From: Escherichia coli
GTDB lineage: Bacteria; Pseudomonadota; Gammaproteobacteria; Enterobacterales; Enterobacteriaceae
DNA length: 64,000 nucleotides
Direction: 5' to 3' (one strand)
NCBI RefSeq assembly: GCF_003334305.1
Contig: NZ_QOWS01000002.1
Within the stretch, counting starts at the first letter, position 1. Each line of letters opens with the position of its first letter. Of the stretch, positions 9,127 through 21,939 are shown in pieces. Made by a program: the position numbers and the translations under genes. The notes beneath the pieces were generated by a model. That model ran no database searches. It was not told the DNA's origin and was given only the letters and a program-made list of their open reading frames with translations.

Positions 9127-9867
<741 letters not shown>

Positions 9868-9920
9868 TAACATCCAGGCGGCGTCCGAACGCGCCGCCGC
9901 TCATCGTCTAAGGAGTACTT

Positions 9921-10145
9921 ATGAGCGCGCTATTTCTGGCTATTCCGTTAACCATTTTTGTGCTGTTTGTTTTACCGATCTGGTTATGGCTGCATTACAG
10001 CAATCGTTCTGGTCGCAGTGAATTGTCGCAAAGTGAGCAGCAGCGATTAGCGCAACTGGCTGATGAAGCAAAACGGATGCGCGAACGTATTCAGGCGCTG
10101 GAATCTATTCTTGATGCAGAACATCCGAACTGGAGGGATCGCTAA
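9921..10145 (+). CDS. pspB: phage shock protein B (small membrane protein)
   Basis: 74-aa ORF with N-terminal hydrophobic segment; stop overlaps the pspC start by 1 nt. Confidence 0.92.
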   Translation: MSALFLAIPLTIFVLFVLPIWLWLHYSNRSGRSELSQSEQQRLAQLADEAKRMRERIQALESILDAEHPNWRDR

Positions 10146-11123: not shown

Positions 11124-11136
11124 AAGAATTCACCAT

Positions 11137-11166
11137 GAGCGGCGCTTATGCGCCGTTTTTTTTTCT
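11137..11166 (+). terminator. rho-independent terminator after pspE
   Basis: GC stem GGCGC-TTAT-GCGCC followed by a run of nine T. Confidence 0.7.
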
Positions 11167-11308
11167 GTCACACCTTATTTACATCCCCATAGATTATTTG
11201 CGTCAGCTCACAAATACGCTTTTTCCCTGGTAAAAAATGATTTCCTGCGTGACTAAAACCCTTGTGCTCAATTGACAGTTTATTTTCTGCGGAGTAGTCT
11301 CTCGTTTC

Positions 11309-11324
11309 ATGGGACCGCTACCAC
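11309..11324 (+). promoter_or_regulatory. candidate YcjW (LacI-family) operator, copy 1, 12 bp upstream of the ycjM ATG
   Basis: ATGGGACCGCTACCAC; an identical 16-mer recurs at 21236-21251. Imperfect dyad TGGGAC-CG-CTACCA with the central CG typical of LacI/GalR-family operators. Confidence 0.5.
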
Positions 11325-11335
11325 GGAAAGGCAAC

Positions 11336-13015
11336 ATGAAACAGAAAATTACGGATTACCTGGACGAAATCTACGGTGGAACATTTACCGCAACTCATTT
11401 ACAGAAACTTGTAACGCGTCTTGAGAGTGCGAAACGATTAATTACACAGCGACGTAAAAAACACTGGGATGAAAGTGATGTCGTGTTAATTACCTATGCC
11501 GATCAATTTCACAGCAATGATTTAAAACCATTACCCACATTTAATCAGTTTTACCATCAATGGCTGCAAAGCATTTTTTCACATGTTCATTTGTTGCCGT
11601 TTTATCCATGGTCATCTGATGATGGCTTTTCGGTAATTGATTATCATCAGGTCGCCAGTGAAGCGGGGGAGTGGCAGGATATTCAGCAACTCGGTGAATG
11701 CAGTCATTTAATGTTTGATTTTGTCTGCAACCATATGTCGGCAAAAAGTGAATGGTTTAAAAACTATTTACAACAGCATCCAGGTTTTGAAGATTTTTTT
11801 ATTGCCGTTGACCCGCAAACCGATCTCAGCGCCGTCACTCGCCCGCGTGCGTTACCGTTATTAACGCCATTCCAGATGCGCGATCATTCAACGCGCCATT
11901 TATGGACCACCTTTAGTGACGATCAAATTGACCTGAATTACCGTAGCCCTGAAGTGTTGCTGGCGATGGTGGATGTTTTACTCTGTTACCTTGCGAAAGG
12001 TGCTGAGTATGTCCGCCTGGATGCCGTTGGCTTTATGTGGAAAGAGCCGGGAACAAGCTGCATCCATCTGGAAAAAACACATCTGATTATCAAACTGTTA
12101 CGGTCGATTATTGATAACGTTGCGCCAGGTACAGTGATCATTACCGAGACCAATGTTCCGCATAAAGACAACATTGCTTACTTTGGCGCAGGCGATGACG
12201 AAGCACATATGGTGTACCAGTTCTCGCTGCCGCCACTGGTGCTGCATGCGGTGCAAAAACAGAACGTTGAGGCGCTTTGTGCGTGGGCGCAAAACCTGAC
12301 ACTACCTTCCAGCAACACCACCTGGTTTAACTTCCTCGCCTCTCACGATGGCATCGGGCTAAACCCGCTACGGGGCTTGTTGCCTGAAAGCGAAATATTA
12401 GAGCTGGTCGAGGCGTTACAGCAGGAAGGTGCATTAGTAAACTGGAAAAATAATCCCGACGGTACACGCAGTCCGTATGAAATAAATGTGACCTATATGG
12501 ATGCGTTAAGCCGCCGTGAGAGTAGCGATGAAGAACGTTGCGCCAGGTTTATTCTCGCCCATGCGATTTTGTTAAGTTTCTCCGGTGTGCCAGCGATATA
12601 TATTCAAAGTATTCTTGGCTCGCGTAATGATTACGCAGGTGTCGAAAAACTCGGATATAACCGTGCGATTAACCGTAAAAAATATCACAGTAAAGAGATA
12701 ACCCGAGAACTGAACGATGAAGCTACATTAAGGCATGCGGTATATCATGAGTTGTCGCGTTTAATTACACTTCGTCGCAGCCATAACGAGTTTCATCCGG
12801 ATAATAATTTTACCATTGATACGATTAATTCATCCGTAATGCGTATTCAAAGAAGTAACGCTGATGGTAATTGTCTGACTGGATTGTTTAATGTCAGTAA
12901 AAATATTCAGCATGTAAATATTACTAATCTGCATGGTCGGGATCTGATTAGTGAAGTTGATATATTGGGTAATGAAATAACGCTGCGCCCCTGGCAGGTT
13001 ATGTGGATTAAATAA
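11336..13015 (+). CDS. ycjM: GH13-family sucrose-phosphorylase-like enzyme (glucosylglycerate phosphorylase)
   Basis: Track ORF 11309..13015 trimmed to ATG 11336 (MKQKITDYLDEIYGG...) giving 559 aa. Confidence 0.88.
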   Translation: MKQKITDYLDEIYGGTFTATHLQKLVTRLESAKRLITQRRKKHWDESDVVLITYADQFHSNDLKPLPTFNQFYHQWLQSIFSHVHLLPFYPWSSDDGFSVIDYHQVASEAGEWQDIQQLGECSHLMFDFVCNHMSAKSEWFKNYLQQHPGFEDFFIAVDPQTDLSAVTRPRALPLLTPFQMRDHSTRHLWTTFSDDQIDLNYRSPEVLLAMVDVLLCYLAKGAEYVRLDAVGFMWKEPGTSCIHLEKTHLIIKLLRSIIDNVAPGTVIITETNVPHKDNIAYFGAGDDEAHMVYQFSLPPLVLHAVQKQNVEALCAWAQNLTLPSSNTTWFNFLASHDGIGLNPLRGLLPESEILELVEALQQEGALVNWKNNPDGTRSPYEINVTYMDALSRRESSDEERCARFILAHAILLSFSGVPAIYIQSILGSRNDYAGVEKLGYNRAINRKKYHSKEITRELNDEATLRHAVYHELSRLITLRRSHNEFHPDNNFTIDTINSSVMRIQRSNADGNCLTGLFNVSKNIQHVNITNLHGRDLISEVDILGNEITLRPWQVMWIK

Positions 13016-13028
13016 AAAGGAACATCTC

Positions 13029-14321
13029 ATGATTAAATCAAAAATCGTGCTGTTATCAGCACTGGTTTCCTGCGCCCTGATTTCAGGCTGTAAAGAAGAA
13101 AATAAAACGAATGTATCCATCGAATTTATGCATTCTTCGGTGGAGCAGGAGCGCCAGGCCGTTATCAGTAAATTGATTGCCCGTTTTGAAAAAGAAAACC
13201 CTGGCATCACCGTTAAGCAAGTGCCCGTGGAAGAAGATGCCTATAACACTAAAGTCATTACTCTTTCACGTAGCGGTTCGCTGCCGGAAGTGATCGAAAC
13301 CAGCCATGACTACGCCAAAGTGATGGACAAAGAGCAGCTTATCGATCGCAAAGCGGTTGCCACAGTCATCAGCAACGTTGGTGAAGGCGCGTTTTACGAT
13401 GGCGTACTGCGTATTGTGCGTACCGAAGATGGTAGCGCATGGACCGGTGTTCCTGTCAGCGCCTGGATTGGCGGTATCTGGTATCGCAAAGATGTGCTGG
13501 CAAAAGCGGGGCTTGAGGAGCCGAAAAACTGGCAACAGCTGCTGGACGTTGCACAGAAACTGAATGACCCGGCGAATAAAAAATACGGCATTGCGCTGCC
13601 TACAGCAGAAAGCGTGTTGACGGAACAATCCTTCTCCCAGTTTGCGTTATCCAACCAGGCTAACGTCTTTAACGCCGAAGGCAAAATCACCCTTGATACA
13701 CCAGAGATGATGCAGGCACTGACCTATTACCGCGACCTTGCTGCCAACACTATGCCGGGTTCTAACGACATCATGGAAGTGAAAGACGCCTTTATGAACG
13801 GCACCGCGCCGATGGCGATTTACTCCACCTATATCCTTCCGGCTGTGATTAAAGAAGGCGACCCGAAAAACGTCGGTTTCGTGGTGCCAACCGAGAAAAA
13901 CTCTGCGGTCTACGGCATGTTGACCTCGCTGACCATTACCGCCGGGCAAAAGACCGAAGAGACGGAAGCAGCAGAAAAATTTGTCACCTTTATGGAGCAG
14001 GCAGACAACATTGCCGACTGGGTGATGATGTCGCCAGGTGCTGCGCTGCCGGTGAATAAAGCGGTTGTCACTACCGCCACCTGGAAAGACAACGACGTTA
14101 TTAAGGCGCTGGGTGAACTACCGAATCAGCTAATCGGTGAACTGCCAAATATTCAGGTCTTTGGTGCAGTAGGGGATAAAAACTTTACCCGCATGGGTGA
14201 TGTGACGGGGTCTGGAGTGGTGAGCTCCATGGTGCATAACGTCACCGTGGGTAAAGCCGATCTCCCTGGCACGCTGCAAGCGAGCCAGAAAAAGCTGGAT
14301 GAACTGATCGAACAGCACTAA
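13029..14321 (+). CDS. ycjN: ABC transporter periplasmic sugar-binding protein
   Basis: 430-aa ORF with lipoprotein-type signal peptide (LVSCALISGC). Confidence 0.88.
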   Translation: MIKSKIVLLSALVSCALISGCKEENKTNVSIEFMHSSVEQERQAVISKLIARFEKENPGITVKQVPVEEDAYNTKVITLSRSGSLPEVIETSHDYAKVMDKEQLIDRKAVATVISNVGEGAFYDGVLRIVRTEDGSAWTGVPVSAWIGGIWYRKDVLAKAGLEEPKNWQQLLDVAQKLNDPANKKYGIALPTAESVLTEQSFSQFALSNQANVFNAEGKITLDTPEMMQALTYYRDLAANTMPGSNDIMEVKDAFMNGTAPMAIYSTYILPAVIKEGDPKNVGFVVPTEKNSAVYGMLTSLTITAGQKTEETEAAEKFVTFMEQADNIADWVMMSPGAALPVNKAVVTTATWKDNDVIKALGELPNQLIGELPNIQVFGAVGDKNFTRMGDVTGSGVVSSMVHNVTVGKADLPGTLQASQKKLDELIEQH

Positions 14322-17950: not shown

Positions 17951-19006
17951 GTGAAAAGTGCAATGACAAGCTCTCCGCTGCGGGTCGCGATAATAGGCGC
18001 AGGCCAGGTGGCGGATAAGGTTCATGCTTCGTACTACTGCACCCGCAACGATCTGGAACTGGTGGCTGTCTGTGACAGCCGCCTTTCCCAGGCGCAGGCG
18101 CTGGCAGATAAATACGGGAATGCATCCGTGTGGGACGATCCGCAGGCCATGCTGCTGGCGGTGAAACCTGATGTGGTTAGCGTCTGCTCACCTAACCGTT
18201 TTCATTACGAACATACCCTGATGGCACTGGAAGCGGGCTGCCATGTGATGTGCGAAAAACCGCCCGCCATGACGCCAGAACAGGCGCGGGAAATGTGCGA
18301 TACCGCGCGCAAACTGGGCAAGGTGCTGGCCTACGACTTTCACCATCGTTTTGCGCTCGATACGCAACAGCTGCGTGACCAGGTGACCAACGGCGTTTTG
18401 GGAGAGATTTACGTTACCACCGCCCGCGCCCTGCGTCGCTGCGGCGTTCCTGGCTGGGGCGTCTTTACCAATAAAGAACTGCAGGGTGGTGGCCCGCTGA
18501 TCGACATCGGCATTCATATGCTGGATGCTGCGATGTATGTGCTGGGCTTTCCGGCGGTGAAAAGCGTGAATGCGCATAGCTTTCAAAAGATCGGCACGCA
18601 AAAGAGCTGTGGTCAATTTGGCGAGTGGGATCCGGCAACTTATAGCGTCGAAGATTCGCTGTTTGGCACCATTGAATTTCATAACGGCGGCATTCTGTGG
18701 CTGGAAACGTCATTTGCACTCAACATCCGCGAACAGTCGATTATGAACGTCAGCTTTTGTGGTGATAAAGCCGGTGCGACGCTGTTTCCAGCACATATCT
18801 ACACCGATAACAACGGTGAATTAATGACGCTGATGCAACGGGAACTGGCAGACGACAACCGCCATTTGCGCAGCATGGAAGCCTTTATCAATCACGTACA
18901 GGGCAAGCCCGTGATGATAGCCGACGCCGAGCAGGGGTACATCATCCAGCAACTGGTGGCGGCGTTGTATCAATCCGCAGAAACAGGGACGCGTGTGGAA
19001 TTATGA
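17951..19006 (+). CDS. ycjS: Gfo/Idh/MocA-family NAD-dependent oxidoreductase
   Basis: 351-aa ORF with N-terminal Rossmann signature (VAIIGAGQVA). Confidence 0.88.
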   Translation: MKSAMTSSPLRVAIIGAGQVADKVHASYYCTRNDLELVAVCDSRLSQAQALADKYGNASVWDDPQAMLLAVKPDVVSVCSPNRFHYEHTLMALEAGCHVMCEKPPAMTPEQAREMCDTARKLGKVLAYDFHHRFALDTQQLRDQVTNGVLGEIYVTTARALRRCGVPGWGVFTNKELQGGGPLIDIGIHMLDAAMYVLGFPAVKSVNAHSFQKIGTQKSCGQFGEWDPATYSVEDSLFGTIEFHNGGILWLETSFALNIREQSIMNVSFCGDKAGATLFPAHIYTDNNGELMTLMQRELADDNRHLRSMEAFINHVQGKPVMIADAEQGYIIQQLVAALYQSAETGTRVEL

Positions 19007-21270
19007 CCAGGCCAGTAACGTTATCAGAACCCCATTTCAGCCAGCATACCCTGAACAAGTATGCATCGCTGATGGCGCAGGGGAACGGCTATCTTGGGCT
19101 TCGCGCCAGCCATGAAGAAGATTACACGCGCCAGACGCGAGGGATGTATCTGGCGGGGCTGTATCATCGGGCGGGAAAAGGTGAAATCAACGAACTGGTG
19201 AACCTGCCTGATATCTTGGGGATGGAGATTGCCATAAATGGTGAGGTTTTCTCGTTATCCCGCGAAGCCTGGCAGCGTGAACTTGACTTTGCCAGTGGAG
19301 AATTACGCCGTAGCGTTGTCTGGCGTACCAGCAACGGCACAGGTTACACCATCGCCAGCCGTCGCTTTGTTTCGGCAGACCAACTGCCGCTCATTGTGCT
19401 GGAAATCACTATTACGCCACTGGACGCCGACGCGTCAGTGCTGATTTCAACAGGTATCGACGCCACGCAAACCAACCACGGTCGCCAACATCTCGACGAA
19501 ACCCAGGTGCGGGTGTTTGGTCAGCATCTGATGCAGGGGATCTACACCACCCAGGATGGACGCAGTGATGTGGCCATCAGCTGTTGCTGTATGGTGAGCG
19601 GTGATGTGCAGCAATGCTATACCGCCAAAGAGCGCCGTTTGCAGCAACATACCAGTGCGCAGCTTCATGCAGGCGAGACAGTGACGTTGCAAAAACTGGT
19701 GTGGATCGACTGGCGGGATGACAGGCAAGCCGTTTTAGACGAGTGGGGCAGCGCGTCGCTTCGCCAGCTTGAAATGTGCGCGCAGCAGAGTTACGACCAA
19801 CTTCTTGCAGTATCAACAGAAAACTGGCGTCAATGGTGGCAGAAACGTCGTATCACGGTAAATGGCGGCGAAGCGCACGATCAGCAAGCGTTAGATTATG
19901 CGCTTTATCATCTGCGCATCATGACGCCTGCCCACGACGAGCGCAGCAGCATTGCGGCAAAAGGCTTAACCGGCGAAGGCTACAAAGGCCACGTTTTCTG
20001 GGATACAGAAGTATTTTTGTTACCGTTTCATCTGTTTAGCGATCCGACGGTTGCCCGAAGTTTACTGCGTTATCGCTGGCACAACTTGCCAGGCGCGCAG
20101 GAGAAAGCGCGACGCAACGGCTGGCAGGGCGCGCTATTTCCGTGGGAAAGCGCGCGCAGCGGCGAAGAAGAGACGCCGGAATTTGCCGCCATTAACATTC
20201 GCACCGGGCTGCGGCAAAAAGTGGCCTCGGCGCAGGCGGAACATCATCTGGTGGCCGATATCGCCTGGGCGGTTATTCAATACTGGCAGACCACGGGGGA
20301 TGAAAGTTTCATTGCGCATGAAGGCATGGCGCTACTTCTGGAAACTGCAAAGTTCTGGATTAGCCGCGCGGTGAGGGTTAACGACCGTCTGGAAATTCAT
20401 GATGTTATTGGGCCTGACGAATATACCGAACATGTCAATAATAACGCCTTCACCAGCTATATGGCGTATTACAACGTCCAGCAGGCGCTGAGTATTGCCC
20501 GCCAGTTTGGCTGTAGCGACGACGCGTTTATTCATCGCGCCGAAATGTTCCTCAAAGAACTGTGGCTACCAGAAACTCAGCCCGACGGCGTTTTGCCGCA
20601 GGATGATTCGTTTATGGCGAAACCAGCGATTAATCTGGCGAAATACAAAGCGGCGGCGGGGAAGCAAACCATTTTGCTGGATTATTCACGCGCAGAAGTG
20701 AACGAAATGCAGATCCTCAAGCAGGCAGATGTGGTGATGCTCAATTACATGCTGCCGGAGCAGTTCTCAGCGGCATCGTGTCTCGCCAATCTGCAATTTT
20801 ATGAACCGCGTACCATTCACGACTCGTCATTAAGTAAAGCAATCCACGGCATTGTTGCCGCACGTTGTGGCCTGTTGGCGCAGGGATATCACTTCTGGCG
20901 GGAGGGGACTGAAATCGATCTTGGTGCTGATCCGCATAGTTGTGATGATGGTATCCATGCTGCCGCAACTGGCGCTATCTGGCTGGGGGCGATTCAGGGT
21001 TTTGCCGGGGTGAGCGTGCGTGACGGTGAATTGCATCTCAATCCGGCGTTACCTGAGCAGTGGCAACAGTTGTCTTTCCCTCTGTTCTGGCAGGGCTGCG
21101 AATTACAGGTCACGCTCGACGCGCAGCGTATTGCGATTCGAACTTCTGCGCCCGTTTCACTGCGTTTGAACGGTCAGCTTATATCCGTGGCTGAAGAATC
21201 TGTTTTCTGTTTGGGTGATTTTATTTTGCCCTTCAATGGGACCGCTACCACACATCAGGAGGATGAATGA
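19003..21270 (+). CDS. ycjT: GH65-family glycoside phosphorylase (kojibiose phosphorylase)
   Basis: 755-aa ORF; start overlaps the ycjS stop (ATGA). Confidence 0.88.
21236..21251 (+). promoter_or_regulatory. candidate YcjW operator, copy 2, inside the 3' end of ycjT and 15 bp upstream of the ycjU ATG
   Basis: Exact second copy of ATGGGACCGCTACCAC (see 11309-11324). Confidence 0.5.
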
Positions 21271-21926
21271 AACTGCAAGGGGTAATTTTCGATCTGGATG
21301 GTGTAATCACCGATACCGCGCATCTGCATTTCCAGGCGTGGCAGCAGATTGCCGCTGAAATTGGCATCAGCATTGATGCGCAGTTTAACGAATCCCTAAA
21401 AGGGATCAGCCGCGATGAGTCTCTGCGGCGCATTCTGCAACACGGGGGCAAAGAGGGCGACTTTAACTCGCAGGAGAGGGCGCAACTGGCGTATCGCAAA
21501 AATCTGCTCTATGTCCACTCACTGCGCGAGTTGACGGTCAACGCTGTTCTACCCGGCATTCGCTCTTTGCTGGCAGCTCTCCGTGCACAGCAGATCCCGG
21601 TTGGGCTGGCTTCTGTCTCCCTGAATGCGCCGACGATTTTAGCGGCGCTGGAGCTGCGCGAGTTTTTCACCTTCTACGCGGATGCTTCCCAACTTAAAAA
21701 CTCGAAACCGGACCCGGAAATCTTTCTCGCCGCCTGTGCAGGGCTGGGCGTGCCGCCGCAGGCATGTATCGGCATTGAAGATGCGCAGGCGGGCATTGAC
21801 GCCATTAACGCCAGCGGTATGCGCTCGGTGGGGATCGGCGCGGGCTTAACCGGGGCGCAATTACTGTTGCCTTCAACGGAATCACTCACCTGGCCGCGGT
21901 TATCGGCCTTCTGGCAAAACGTATAG
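21267..21926 (+). CDS. ycjU: beta-phosphoglucomutase (HAD superfamily)
   Basis: 219-aa ORF with the HAD motif I ([12 protein letters not shown]). Confidence 0.9.
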
Positions 21927-21939
21927 CAAAGGAATCAAC

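What the first reader, a model, noticed from the sequence alone, without database searches (positions are those of the whole stretch)
21236..21251. Second copy of the 16-bp motif inside the 3' end of ycjT, upstream of ycjU: possible internal operator/promoter splitting the cluster
This copy lies within ycjT coding sequence, 15 bp before the ycjU ATG. That suggests an internal regulated promoter for ycjU-ycjV-ompG, separate from the promoter at ycjM, which would allow the phosphoglucomutase, ATPase and porin to be expressed independently of the upstream enzymes.
Basis: partly seen in the sequence, partly recalled or inferred. Interest (0 to 1): 0.5.

Follow-up and report, generated by a model that had tools for sequence, protein, structure and literature searches.

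The report
Known second YcjW operator before ycjU
The repeated 16-base motif at the end of ycjT is real. It is the second binding site of the sugar-operon repressor YcjW, already mapped experimentally in E. coli K-12. I found no sign that it comes with a promoter of its own.

Summary
ATGGGACCGCTACCAC occurs exactly twice in the window: at 11309-11324, just before ycjM, and at 21236-21251, in the last 11 codons of ycjT and 15 nt before the ycjU ATG. Its 14-bp core, TGGGACCGCTACCA, is an imperfect palindrome with a central CG, as expected for a LacI-family operator.

This site is already known. ChIP-seq (Luhachack 2019) and ChIP-exo (Gao 2021) both place YcjW on it in K-12. It is the strongest of 64 ChIP-exo peaks.

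New here:
- The core is kept in 12 further taxa from Escherichia to Klebsiella aerogenes, although it sits in a poorly conserved YcjT tail.
- Three of the only five invariant four-fold synonymous sites in all of ycjT lie inside it.

- The ycjM site follows a near-consensus, conserved promoter (TTGACA-17-TAGTCT).
- Nothing above background precedes the ycjU site in any of ten taxa, and nothing upstream of it is conserved.
- No transcript start there was listed in the datasets I could search, but the operon is repressed in those conditions, so this says little.

My best reading, which is inferred, is a second lock inside the operon: a roadblock that keeps ycjU-ycjV-ompG shut. A weak repressed promoter remains a live rival. 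Interest is low.

The parts
21237..21250 (.). O2: the 14-bp YcjW operator core TGGGACCGCTACCA, an imperfect palindrome with a central CG, inside YcjT codons 745-750
   Evidence: Exact copy of the ycjM site. The K-12 14-mer is identical. The ChIP-exo footprint 1380109-1380138 (converted to NC_000913.3) brackets it, with S/N 1665, the highest of 64 sites. ChIP-seq gives a peak 'between ycjT and ycjU'. The core is exact or has 1 mismatch in 12 further taxa.
21236..21251 (+).
   Evidence: The flanking bases vary between strains and species.
11310..11323 (.). O1: the identical YcjW operator core, ending 12 nt before the ycjM ATG (11336)
   Evidence: EMSA with a ycjM probe and a ChIP-seq peak in Luhachack 2019. 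Conserved in all taxa where the region was available.
11272..11300 (+). Predicted ycjM promoter: -35 TTGACA (11272-11277), 17-nt spacer, -10 TAGTCT (11295-11300). The operator starts 9 nt after the -10.
   Evidence: Weight-matrix score 12.0, in the top 0.1% of windows. GTAGTCT is invariant in 4 divergent lineages. Budvicia has the same layout, TTGACA-17-TAGCCT. No transcript start was mapped here.
21222..21227 (+). Weak -10-like TATTTT, ending 9 nt before O2, with no usable -35. This is the only candidate for an internal promoter.
   Evidence: Score 3.0, at background level. It lies within the F-I-L codons of YcjT and is not conserved in C. amalonaticus, S. arizonae, Enterobacter, K. aerogenes or Scandinavium.
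21257..21262 (+). ycjU Shine-Dalgarno sequence AGGAGG, 4 nt before the ATG at 21267
   Evidence: Read from the sequence. A purine-rich stretch is kept at this position in the other taxa.
19003..21270 (+). ycjT (kojibiose phosphorylase); its poorly conserved C-terminal tail holds O2
21267..23972 (+). ycjU/pgmB (21267-21926), ycjV (21940-23022) and ompG (23067-23972): the genes downstream of O2
   Evidence: Gene order is conserved as far as Budvicia.
24083..25081 (-). ycjW, the LacI-family repressor (332 aa)
   Evidence: Closest solved relatives are CcpA and PurR; it has no LacI-type C-terminal tetramerisation segment.

Best explanation
The motif is O2, the second operator of the LacI-family repressor YcjW. 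I put that identification at about 0.97.

Shown:
- It is the same 14-bp CG-centred palindrome as the operator at the ycjM promoter.
- YcjW occupies it in vivo in K-12, more strongly than any other site in the genome.
- Selection acts on the DNA sequence itself, not on the YcjT residues it encodes.
- Loss of YcjW derepresses the downstream genes. In vitro, kojibiose releases YcjW from the identical 14-mer.

Inferred:
- O2 has no promoter of its own.
- A YcjW dimer bound there acts as a second lock inside the 11-gene transcription unit. It blocks RNA polymerases that leak from the ycjM promoter, start spuriously within the 10 kb upstream, or read through from the strongly inducible psp operon.
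- Without the inducer, ycjU, the ATPase gene ycjV and above all the large-pore porin gene ompG therefore stay silent.
- The inducer opens O1 and O2 together, so the operon is still expressed as one unit.

The confidence figure below refers to the roadblock mechanism.
For: Identity:
- Exact repeat and palindrome.
- ChIP-seq peaks at ycjM and between ycjT and ycjU, a 14-nt motif, EMSA and release by kojibiose.
- ChIP-exo S/N 1665 at ycjU against 840 at ycjM and at most 121 elsewhere. The footprint is centred on the core.
- ycjW is encoded next to the cluster.

Selection on the DNA:
- The core is exact in E. coli K-12, E. whittamii, Pseudocitrobacter, Escherichia sp. E1V33, a Citrobacter MAG, C. 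sedlakii, C. amalonaticus, the Enterobacter cloacae complex and K. aerogenes. It has 1 mismatch in Escherichia sp. MOD1, S. enterica arizonae and Scandinavium.
- Across six taxa, ycjT has 119 four-fold codon columns with an invariant amino acid. Only 5 have an invariant third base, and 3 of those 5 lie in the operator.
- In S. arizonae the one change is non-synonymous (A to D), while the synonymous positions are kept.

No promoter:
- (background-level scores in 10 taxa).
- (no conservation upstream of O2, in contrast to O1).

One transcription unit:
- ycjT and ycjU overlap or abut everywhere.
- The whole ycjM-ompG set is co-induced together with psp in a plasma-stress study.

Effect across O2: the fold derepression in a ycjW deletion is 22 for ycjT, 45 for ycjU and 40 for ompG (Welch p = 0.016 and 0.008, n = 3). 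This is as expected if O2 lowers the repressed baseline downstream.

Precedent: YcjW's closest solved relatives are PurR and CcpA. From established knowledge rather than anything tested here, both act as roadblocks at operators inside transcribed regions (PurR at purB; CcpA cre sites in ORFs).
Against: - No experiment isolates O2. The 2-fold step in qRT-PCR ratios is equally predicted by an internal repressed promoter, and it rests on three replicates with different primer pairs.
- A roadblock does not need to sit 12-16 nt before a start codon, yet O2 keeps that position in every taxon, just as O1 does. That geometry looks like a promoter-proximal operator.
- A -10-like TATTTT sits at the same 9-nt spacing as the -10 of the ycjM promoter in Escherichia and C. 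sedlakii.
- My weight matrix uses consensus frequencies recalled from the literature. It cannot see activator-dependent or alternative-sigma promoters.
- A ycjU fragment with 395 bp of upstream DNA complemented a ycjU mutant from pBR322, although vector read-through could explain that.
Confidence: 0.5

Rival explanations
1. O2 overlaps the start of a weak internal promoter (-10 TATTTT at 21222-21227, start near 21234-21236) that YcjW represses. Derepression would then add transcripts for ycjU-ycjV-ompG on top of those from the ycjM promoter, offsetting the decay of transcription along a 12.6-kb operon.
For: - O2 keeps the same spacing to the -10-like hexamer (9 nt) and to the start codon (12-16 nt) as O1.
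- ycjU and ompG show about 2-fold higher derepression than ycjT. This restores the level seen at ycjM: 43, 22, 45 and 40 for ycjM, ycjT, ycjU and ompG.
- ycjU with 395 bp upstream complemented a mutant from a plasmid; the authors called that stretch its promoter region.
Against: - There is no -35 element and no extended -10.
- Scores are at background in all ten taxa.
- The TATTTT lies within conserved F-I-L codons and is lost where those residues change.
- Nothing upstream of O2 is conserved, whereas the ycjM promoter elements are kept as far as Budvicia.
- No feature in ycjT or ycjU is listed in the transcript-end supplements I could search. These are uninformative for a repressed operon.
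- Neither site is flagged as RNA-polymerase-bound in glucose medium.
- Splitting ycjT from ycjU makes little pathway sense, since they catalyse consecutive steps.
Confidence: 0.3
2. O2 is an auxiliary operator. It helps repress the ycjM promoter from a distance, either by looping to O1 or by holding repressor near the locus, as lacO2 and galOI do for their promoters.
For: There are two identical high-affinity sites in one operon, and O2 has the higher occupancy. The O1-O2 distance is kept at about 9.93-9.95 kb across taxa.
Against: - The sites are 9,927 bp apart, far beyond the 92-401 bp of the classical cases.
- YcjW aligns to LacI only up to residue 313 and ends 13 residues later, so it lacks LacI's tetramerisation helix.
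- It was modelled as a dimer on PurR (file 9).
- The constant distance simply follows from conserved gene content.
Confidence: 0.07
3. The binding has no regulatory consequence: a chance repeat or an evolutionary relic that merely titrates YcjW.
For: Exact 14-15-mers do recur by chance in the cluster. In Budvicia the corresponding position has lost the central CG, reading TGCGAGCAGTGCCA. The cluster can therefore exist without an intact O2.
Against: The core shows DNA-level purifying selection across taxa whose YcjT is only about 62-73% identical (the six full-length sequences compared). Three of the five invariant four-fold sites in ycjT fall in the core. It is also the strongest in vivo YcjW site.
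Confidence: 0.03

Closest known systems
YcjW operator at the ycjM promoter (O1), and the published YcjW site 'between ycjT and ycjU' in E. coli K-12 (Luhachack et al. 2019; Gao et al. 2021)
   Same: The 14-bp core is identical, the repressor is the same, and the distance to the following start codon is the same. The K-12 site is the orthologous position and has an identical core.
   Different: O1 follows a strong, conserved sigma-70 promoter; O2 does not. This window comes from a non-K-12 strain and differs from K-12 only in the base flanking the core.
PurR operator inside purB, and CcpA cre sites inside ORFs (roadblock operators of LacI-family dimers; from established knowledge)
   Same: A LacI-family dimer binds a palindromic operator inside a transcribed coding region with no promoter next to it. 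PurR and CcpA are YcjW's closest solved relatives.
   Different: The purB operator lies 242 bp from its promoter; O2 lies about 9.9 kb downstream, at a gene junction. A roadblock at O2 has not been shown.
lacO2 (in lacZ) and galOI (in galE): internal auxiliary operators that loop to the promoter operator
   Same: A second operator lies inside coding sequence of the regulated operon.
   Different: Those sites are 401 and about 114 bp from the primary operator. They rely on a tetramer (LacI) or on HU-assisted pairing of dimers (GalR). O2 is 9,927 bp away, and YcjW lacks the tetramerisation segment.

Membership tests
LacI/GalR-family operator (YcjW regulon site) | 14-20-bp palindrome with a central CG | tested here: met
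   TGGGACC|GCTACCA has 10 of 14 positions symmetric and CG at the centre (read). The criterion is quoted.
LacI/GalR-family operator (YcjW regulon site) | Matches the sequence shown to bind YcjW | tested here: met
   The 14-mer is identical to the ycjM site used as the EMSA probe. The ycjU fragment itself was not used as a probe.
LacI/GalR-family operator (YcjW regulon site) | Occupied by the regulator in vivo | tested here: met
   From published data: a ChIP-seq peak and a ChIP-exo footprint that brackets the core, the top peak of 64. The data are for K-12, whose core is identical.
LacI/GalR-family operator (YcjW regulon site) | Conserved in orthologous loci beyond what coding constraint explains | tested here: met
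   the core is exact or has 1 mismatch in 12 further taxa, and 3 of the 5 invariant four-fold sites of ycjT lie in it.
LacI/GalR-family operator (YcjW regulon site) | A regulatory effect attributable to this site | tested here: inconclusive
   A ycjW deletion derepresses ycjU and ompG, with a 2-fold step relative to ycjT. No O2-specific mutant exists.
Repressor-controlled internal promoter | Recognisable -35/-10 elements placed so that the operator overlaps the promoter or the transcript start | tested here: not met
   The tool scan gave 0 hits. The best weight-matrix score is 3.0-3.6, at background. The same holds in 10 taxa. Only an isolated TATTTT is present.
Repressor-controlled internal promoter | Promoter elements conserved across species | tested here: not met
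   There are no invariant columns upstream of O2, whereas GTAGTCT is invariant upstream of O1.
Repressor-controlled internal promoter | A mapped primary transcript start | not testable with these tools
   Nothing is listed for ycjT or ycjU in three searchable supplements. The operon is repressed in those conditions, and some files were cut when stored.
Transcriptional roadblock operator | Operator inside a transcribed region, downstream of the promoter, with no promoter of its own | tested here: met
   Position in ycjT. The operon is treated as one unit. No promoter signal was found.
Transcriptional roadblock operator | Truncated transcripts or paused polymerase just upstream of the bound repressor | not testable with these tools
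   This needs 3'-end mapping or NET-seq in wild-type and ycjW-deleted cells.
Auxiliary looping operator (lacO2/galOI type) | The repressor can bridge two operators (a tetramer or an equivalent) | tested here: not met
   The YcjW-LacI alignment ends at LacI residue 313 and YcjW ends 13 residues later. It was modelled as a dimer. This is inferred from sequence only.
Auxiliary looping operator (lacO2/galOI type) | Operators within a few hundred bp of each other | tested here: not met
   The spacing is 9,927 bp.

The most novel reading that the evidence does not exclude
O2 is a natural, conserved intra-operon roadblock. A LacI-family dimer parked 10 kb into an 11-gene operon, inside the dispensable tail of an enzyme gene, would act as a second lock. 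It would keep a potentially harmful large-pore porin (OmpG) and its partner genes off despite leak or read-through from the neighbouring stress-induced psp operon.
Probability: 0.45. Interest if true: 0.35.

Novelty: already known. Interest (0 to 1): 0.15.

Why it matters
The site itself adds nothing new, because two published genome-wide binding studies already list it. What remains open is how a repressor site 10 kb inside an operon works: as a promoter operator or as a roadblock. The question is small but cleanly testable. It bears on why ompG is so tightly silent in laboratory E. coli. It also bears on how often "internal" transcription-factor peaks in ChIP data are elongation blocks rather than promoters. 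The conservation analysis here shows that the site is under selection as DNA, so it is worth one targeted experiment.

Tried and rejected
- Transcript-start evidence. I searched the supplements of SMRT-Cappable-seq, Adams 2021 and Kim 2012 for ycjT/ycjU. One search also covered ycjM and ompG, ycjV and ompG, and ycjM. The only hit was an entry antisense to ompG in Adams 2021; a neighbouring row in that passage is antisense to ycjN. The Cappable-seq GTF is stored truncated. Thomason 2015 and Zuo & Stormo 2014 are not held. None of this can test a promoter that is repressed in the conditions used.
- Literature searches for ycjU plus 'transcription start site', and for an ompG/ycjV promoter, returned only the YcjW paper and YcjN papers. 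The YcjW paper does not mention a roadblock, an internal promoter or looping.
- A split operon elsewhere. I looked for taxa where pgmB-ycjV-ompG forms its own unit behind an intergenic operator. Gene order is identical in all 13 loci, from Escherichia to Budvicia.
- Extended homology between the two regulatory regions. Only the 16-mer and a TTTTCTG heptamer align, so a recent duplication of the promoter region is rejected.
- Known RNA families in the cluster: none.
- Four-way invariant runs as a conservation test. Runs of 14 nt or more are common in this alignment, so I replaced that test with the synonymous-site test.

Full report
**What is there.** The window carries the E. coli (non-K-12) region pspF-pspABCDE / ycjMNOPQRSTUV-ompG / ycjW. 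This follows from a 100% match to strain CFSAN064035 and its RefSeq annotation. The ORFs fit the annotation: ycjT 19003-21270, ycjU (pgmB) 21267-21926, ycjV 21940-23022, ompG 23067-23972 and ycjW 24083-25081 on the minus strand.

The reported 16-mer ATGGGACCGCTACCAC is at 21236-21251, in YcjT codons N745-T750. Fifteen bases separate it from the ycjU ATG, which overlaps the ycjT stop as ATGA. The only other match in 64 kb, even with three mismatches allowed, is an exact copy at 11309-11324, whose core ends 12 nt before the ycjM ATG at 11336. The ORF lister's start at 11309 is an in-frame ATG that happens to lie inside the motif.

**Is it more than chance?** For a given 16-mer, a second exact copy is expected 3e-5 times. 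Some exact 16-mer pair somewhere in 64 kb is expected about 0.5 times, though, and the cluster also contains chance exact 14- and 15-mers. The repeat alone would therefore be weak evidence. Three things carry the case:
- The 14-bp core TGGGACCGCTACCA is an imperfect palindrome with a central CG, the LacI-family signature.
- Both copies sit just upstream of a ribosome-binding site in one operon, next to a LacI-family gene.
- The comparative and published data below agree.

**Already known.** Luhachack et al. 2019 (PMC6599011) did ChIP-seq on FLAG-tagged YcjW. [quoted passage not shown] They derive a 14-nt motif, show EMSA binding to the ycjM probe, and show release by kojibiose. A ycjW deletion derepresses ycjM, ycjT, ycjU and ompG.

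Gao et al. 2021 (PMC8464067) list 64 YcjW ChIP-exo sites. The ycjU site has the highest signal-to-noise ratio (1664.9), ycjM is second (840.0) and the next is 120.6. Converted from NC_000913.2 to NC_000913.3 (+1976), the ycjU footprint is 1380109-1380138. In K-12 that interval reads GCCCTTCAA-TGGGACCGCTACCA-AACATCA, so it is centred on the core. The K-12 core is identical to the window; only the 3' flanking base differs. The functional unit is therefore the 14-mer, not the 16-mer.

**New comparative evidence.** A species-level genome scan with YcjU and the genomic contexts of YcjW orthologues gave 13 loci with the same gene order. The O2 core varies as follows:
- It is exact in E. whittamii, Pseudocitrobacter, Escherichia sp. 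E1V33, a Citrobacter MAG, C. sedlakii, C. amalonaticus, the Enterobacter cloacae complex and Klebsiella aerogenes.
- It has one mismatch in Escherichia sp. MOD1, S. enterica arizonae and Scandinavium.
- It is degenerate in Budvicia (TGCGAGCAGTGCCA, central CG lost).

It always lies 12-16 nt before the ycjU start and inside the YcjT tail. That tail is otherwise barely conserved.

In a six-taxon codon alignment of ycjT, 119 four-fold degenerate columns have an invariant amino acid. Only 5 of them also have an invariant third base, and 3 of those 5 are the G, T and T codons of the operator. In S. arizonae the single change is non-synonymous, while the synonymous positions are kept. Selection is therefore on the DNA, not on the protein.

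**Is there a promoter?** At O1 there is TTGACA-17 nt-TAGTCT, ending 9 nt before the operator. It scores 12.0 in a simple sigma-70 weight matrix, which places it in the top 0.1% of windows. GTAGTCT is invariant in four divergent lineages, and Budvicia has TTGACA-17-TAGCCT in the same place.

At O2 the picture is different:
- The tool scan finds nothing on either strand.
- The best weight-matrix candidates score 3.0-3.6, which 51-59% of random windows equal.
- The ten taxa tested all give background values, with P from 0.13 to 0.88.
- No column upstream of the operator is conserved.

The one suggestive feature is a TATTTT at 21222-21227 with the same 9-nt spacing as at O1. It has no -35 element, lies within F-I-L codons, and disappears where those residues change.

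Two caveats apply. The matrix uses consensus frequencies that I recalled from the literature. It would also miss activator-dependent or alternative-sigma promoters. The tool's stricter scan also misses the ycjM promoter.

**Expression data.** The Luhachack source data give these fold changes for the ycjW deletion over wild type, as geometric means: ycjM 43, ycjT 22, ycjU 45 and ompG 40. ycjU and ompG exceed ycjT (Welch p = 0.016 and 0.008, n = 3).

This step across O2 suggests that the site acts in cis. It fits both models equally: an internal repressed promoter adding transcripts, or a roadblock lowering the repressed baseline downstream.

Han et al. 2010 complemented a ycjU::Tn5 mutant with ycjU plus 395 bp of upstream DNA in pBR322. 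Vector read-through and titration of YcjW make this weak evidence.

A plasma-stress transcriptome reports psp and the whole ycjM-ompG set induced together. That fits one transcription unit and read-through from psp as a real source of unscheduled transcription.

No feature in ycjT or ycjU appears in the transcript-end supplements I could search. Neither operator is flagged as RNA-polymerase-bound in glucose medium. All of these are repressed conditions, so the absence of a start site says little.

**Mechanism.** It is shown that O2 is a high-occupancy, selected YcjW operator, and that its downstream genes are YcjW-repressed. My inference, at about 0.5, is that O2 has no promoter and works as a roadblock inside the operon.

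Long-range cooperation with O1 gets about 0.07. The sites are 9,927 bp apart, and YcjW (332 aa) aligns to LacI only up to residue 313, so it lacks the tetramerisation helix. Its closest solved relatives are the dimers CcpA and PurR. Binding with no function gets about 0.03, given the selection on the site.

**Verdict.** The operator interpretation is correct but already published. The promoter interpretation is unsupported by sequence and untested by experiment. Novelty: already known. Interest is low (0.15); the only open point is the mode of action of O2, and the experiments listed under next steps would settle it.

Noticed in passing
window 13047-13087 (ycjN codons 7-20, lipoprotein signal peptide): A 41-nt run is identical in E. 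coli, C. sedlakii, C. amalonaticus and S. arizonae. It is the longest invariant run in the 20-kb four-way alignment, and all of its synonymous sites are frozen. It contains the hairpin GTGCTG-TTAT-CAGCAC, which Budvicia keeps with loop CTAT. It may be an mRNA structure or a processing or regulatory site just inside ycjN. No Rfam family matches.
   Followed up: partly
window about 11416-11451 (K-12 NC_000913.3 1370296-1370331, inside ycjM): The ChIP-exo peak that Gao 2021 assigns to ycjM maps about 106 bp downstream of operator O1. This uses the same coordinate offset that puts the ycjU peak exactly on O2. That stretch has no YcjW-like motif (5 mismatches or fewer) and is not conserved. It is either a peak-calling or coordinate quirk, or something unexplained.
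   Followed up: partly
L014 6961-6974 and 16901-16914 (Budvicia diplopodorum): Budvicia keeps the whole cluster, the ycjM promoter and O1 (TGGTACCGCTCCCA). At the O2 position it has TGCGAGCAGTGCCA: 11 of 14 bases match the reverse complement of its own O1, but the central CG is lost. O2 is therefore old, yet it can decay.
   Followed up: partly
L009, about 9700-10000 (C. amalonaticus AUH_CA_2023_1): The ycjT reading frame is open for only 92 codons before its stop in this assembly, which suggests a frameshift, a pseudogene or a sequencing error. Both operators are nevertheless exact.
   Followed up: no
window 11134-11158: A strong terminator-like hairpin with a T-run follows pspE, about 150 nt upstream of O1. 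Published data nevertheless show psp and the ycj operon co-induced, and pspE raised in a ycjW deletion. That suggests transcriptional cross-talk across this junction.
   Followed up: no
L002 14822-15903 (K-12 ycjV/ymjB) versus window 21940-23022: ycjV, which encodes the ATPase of the ABC transporter, is an intact 360-codon ORF in this window but is annotated as a split pseudogene (ycjV plus ymjB) in K-12 MG1655.
   Followed up: no
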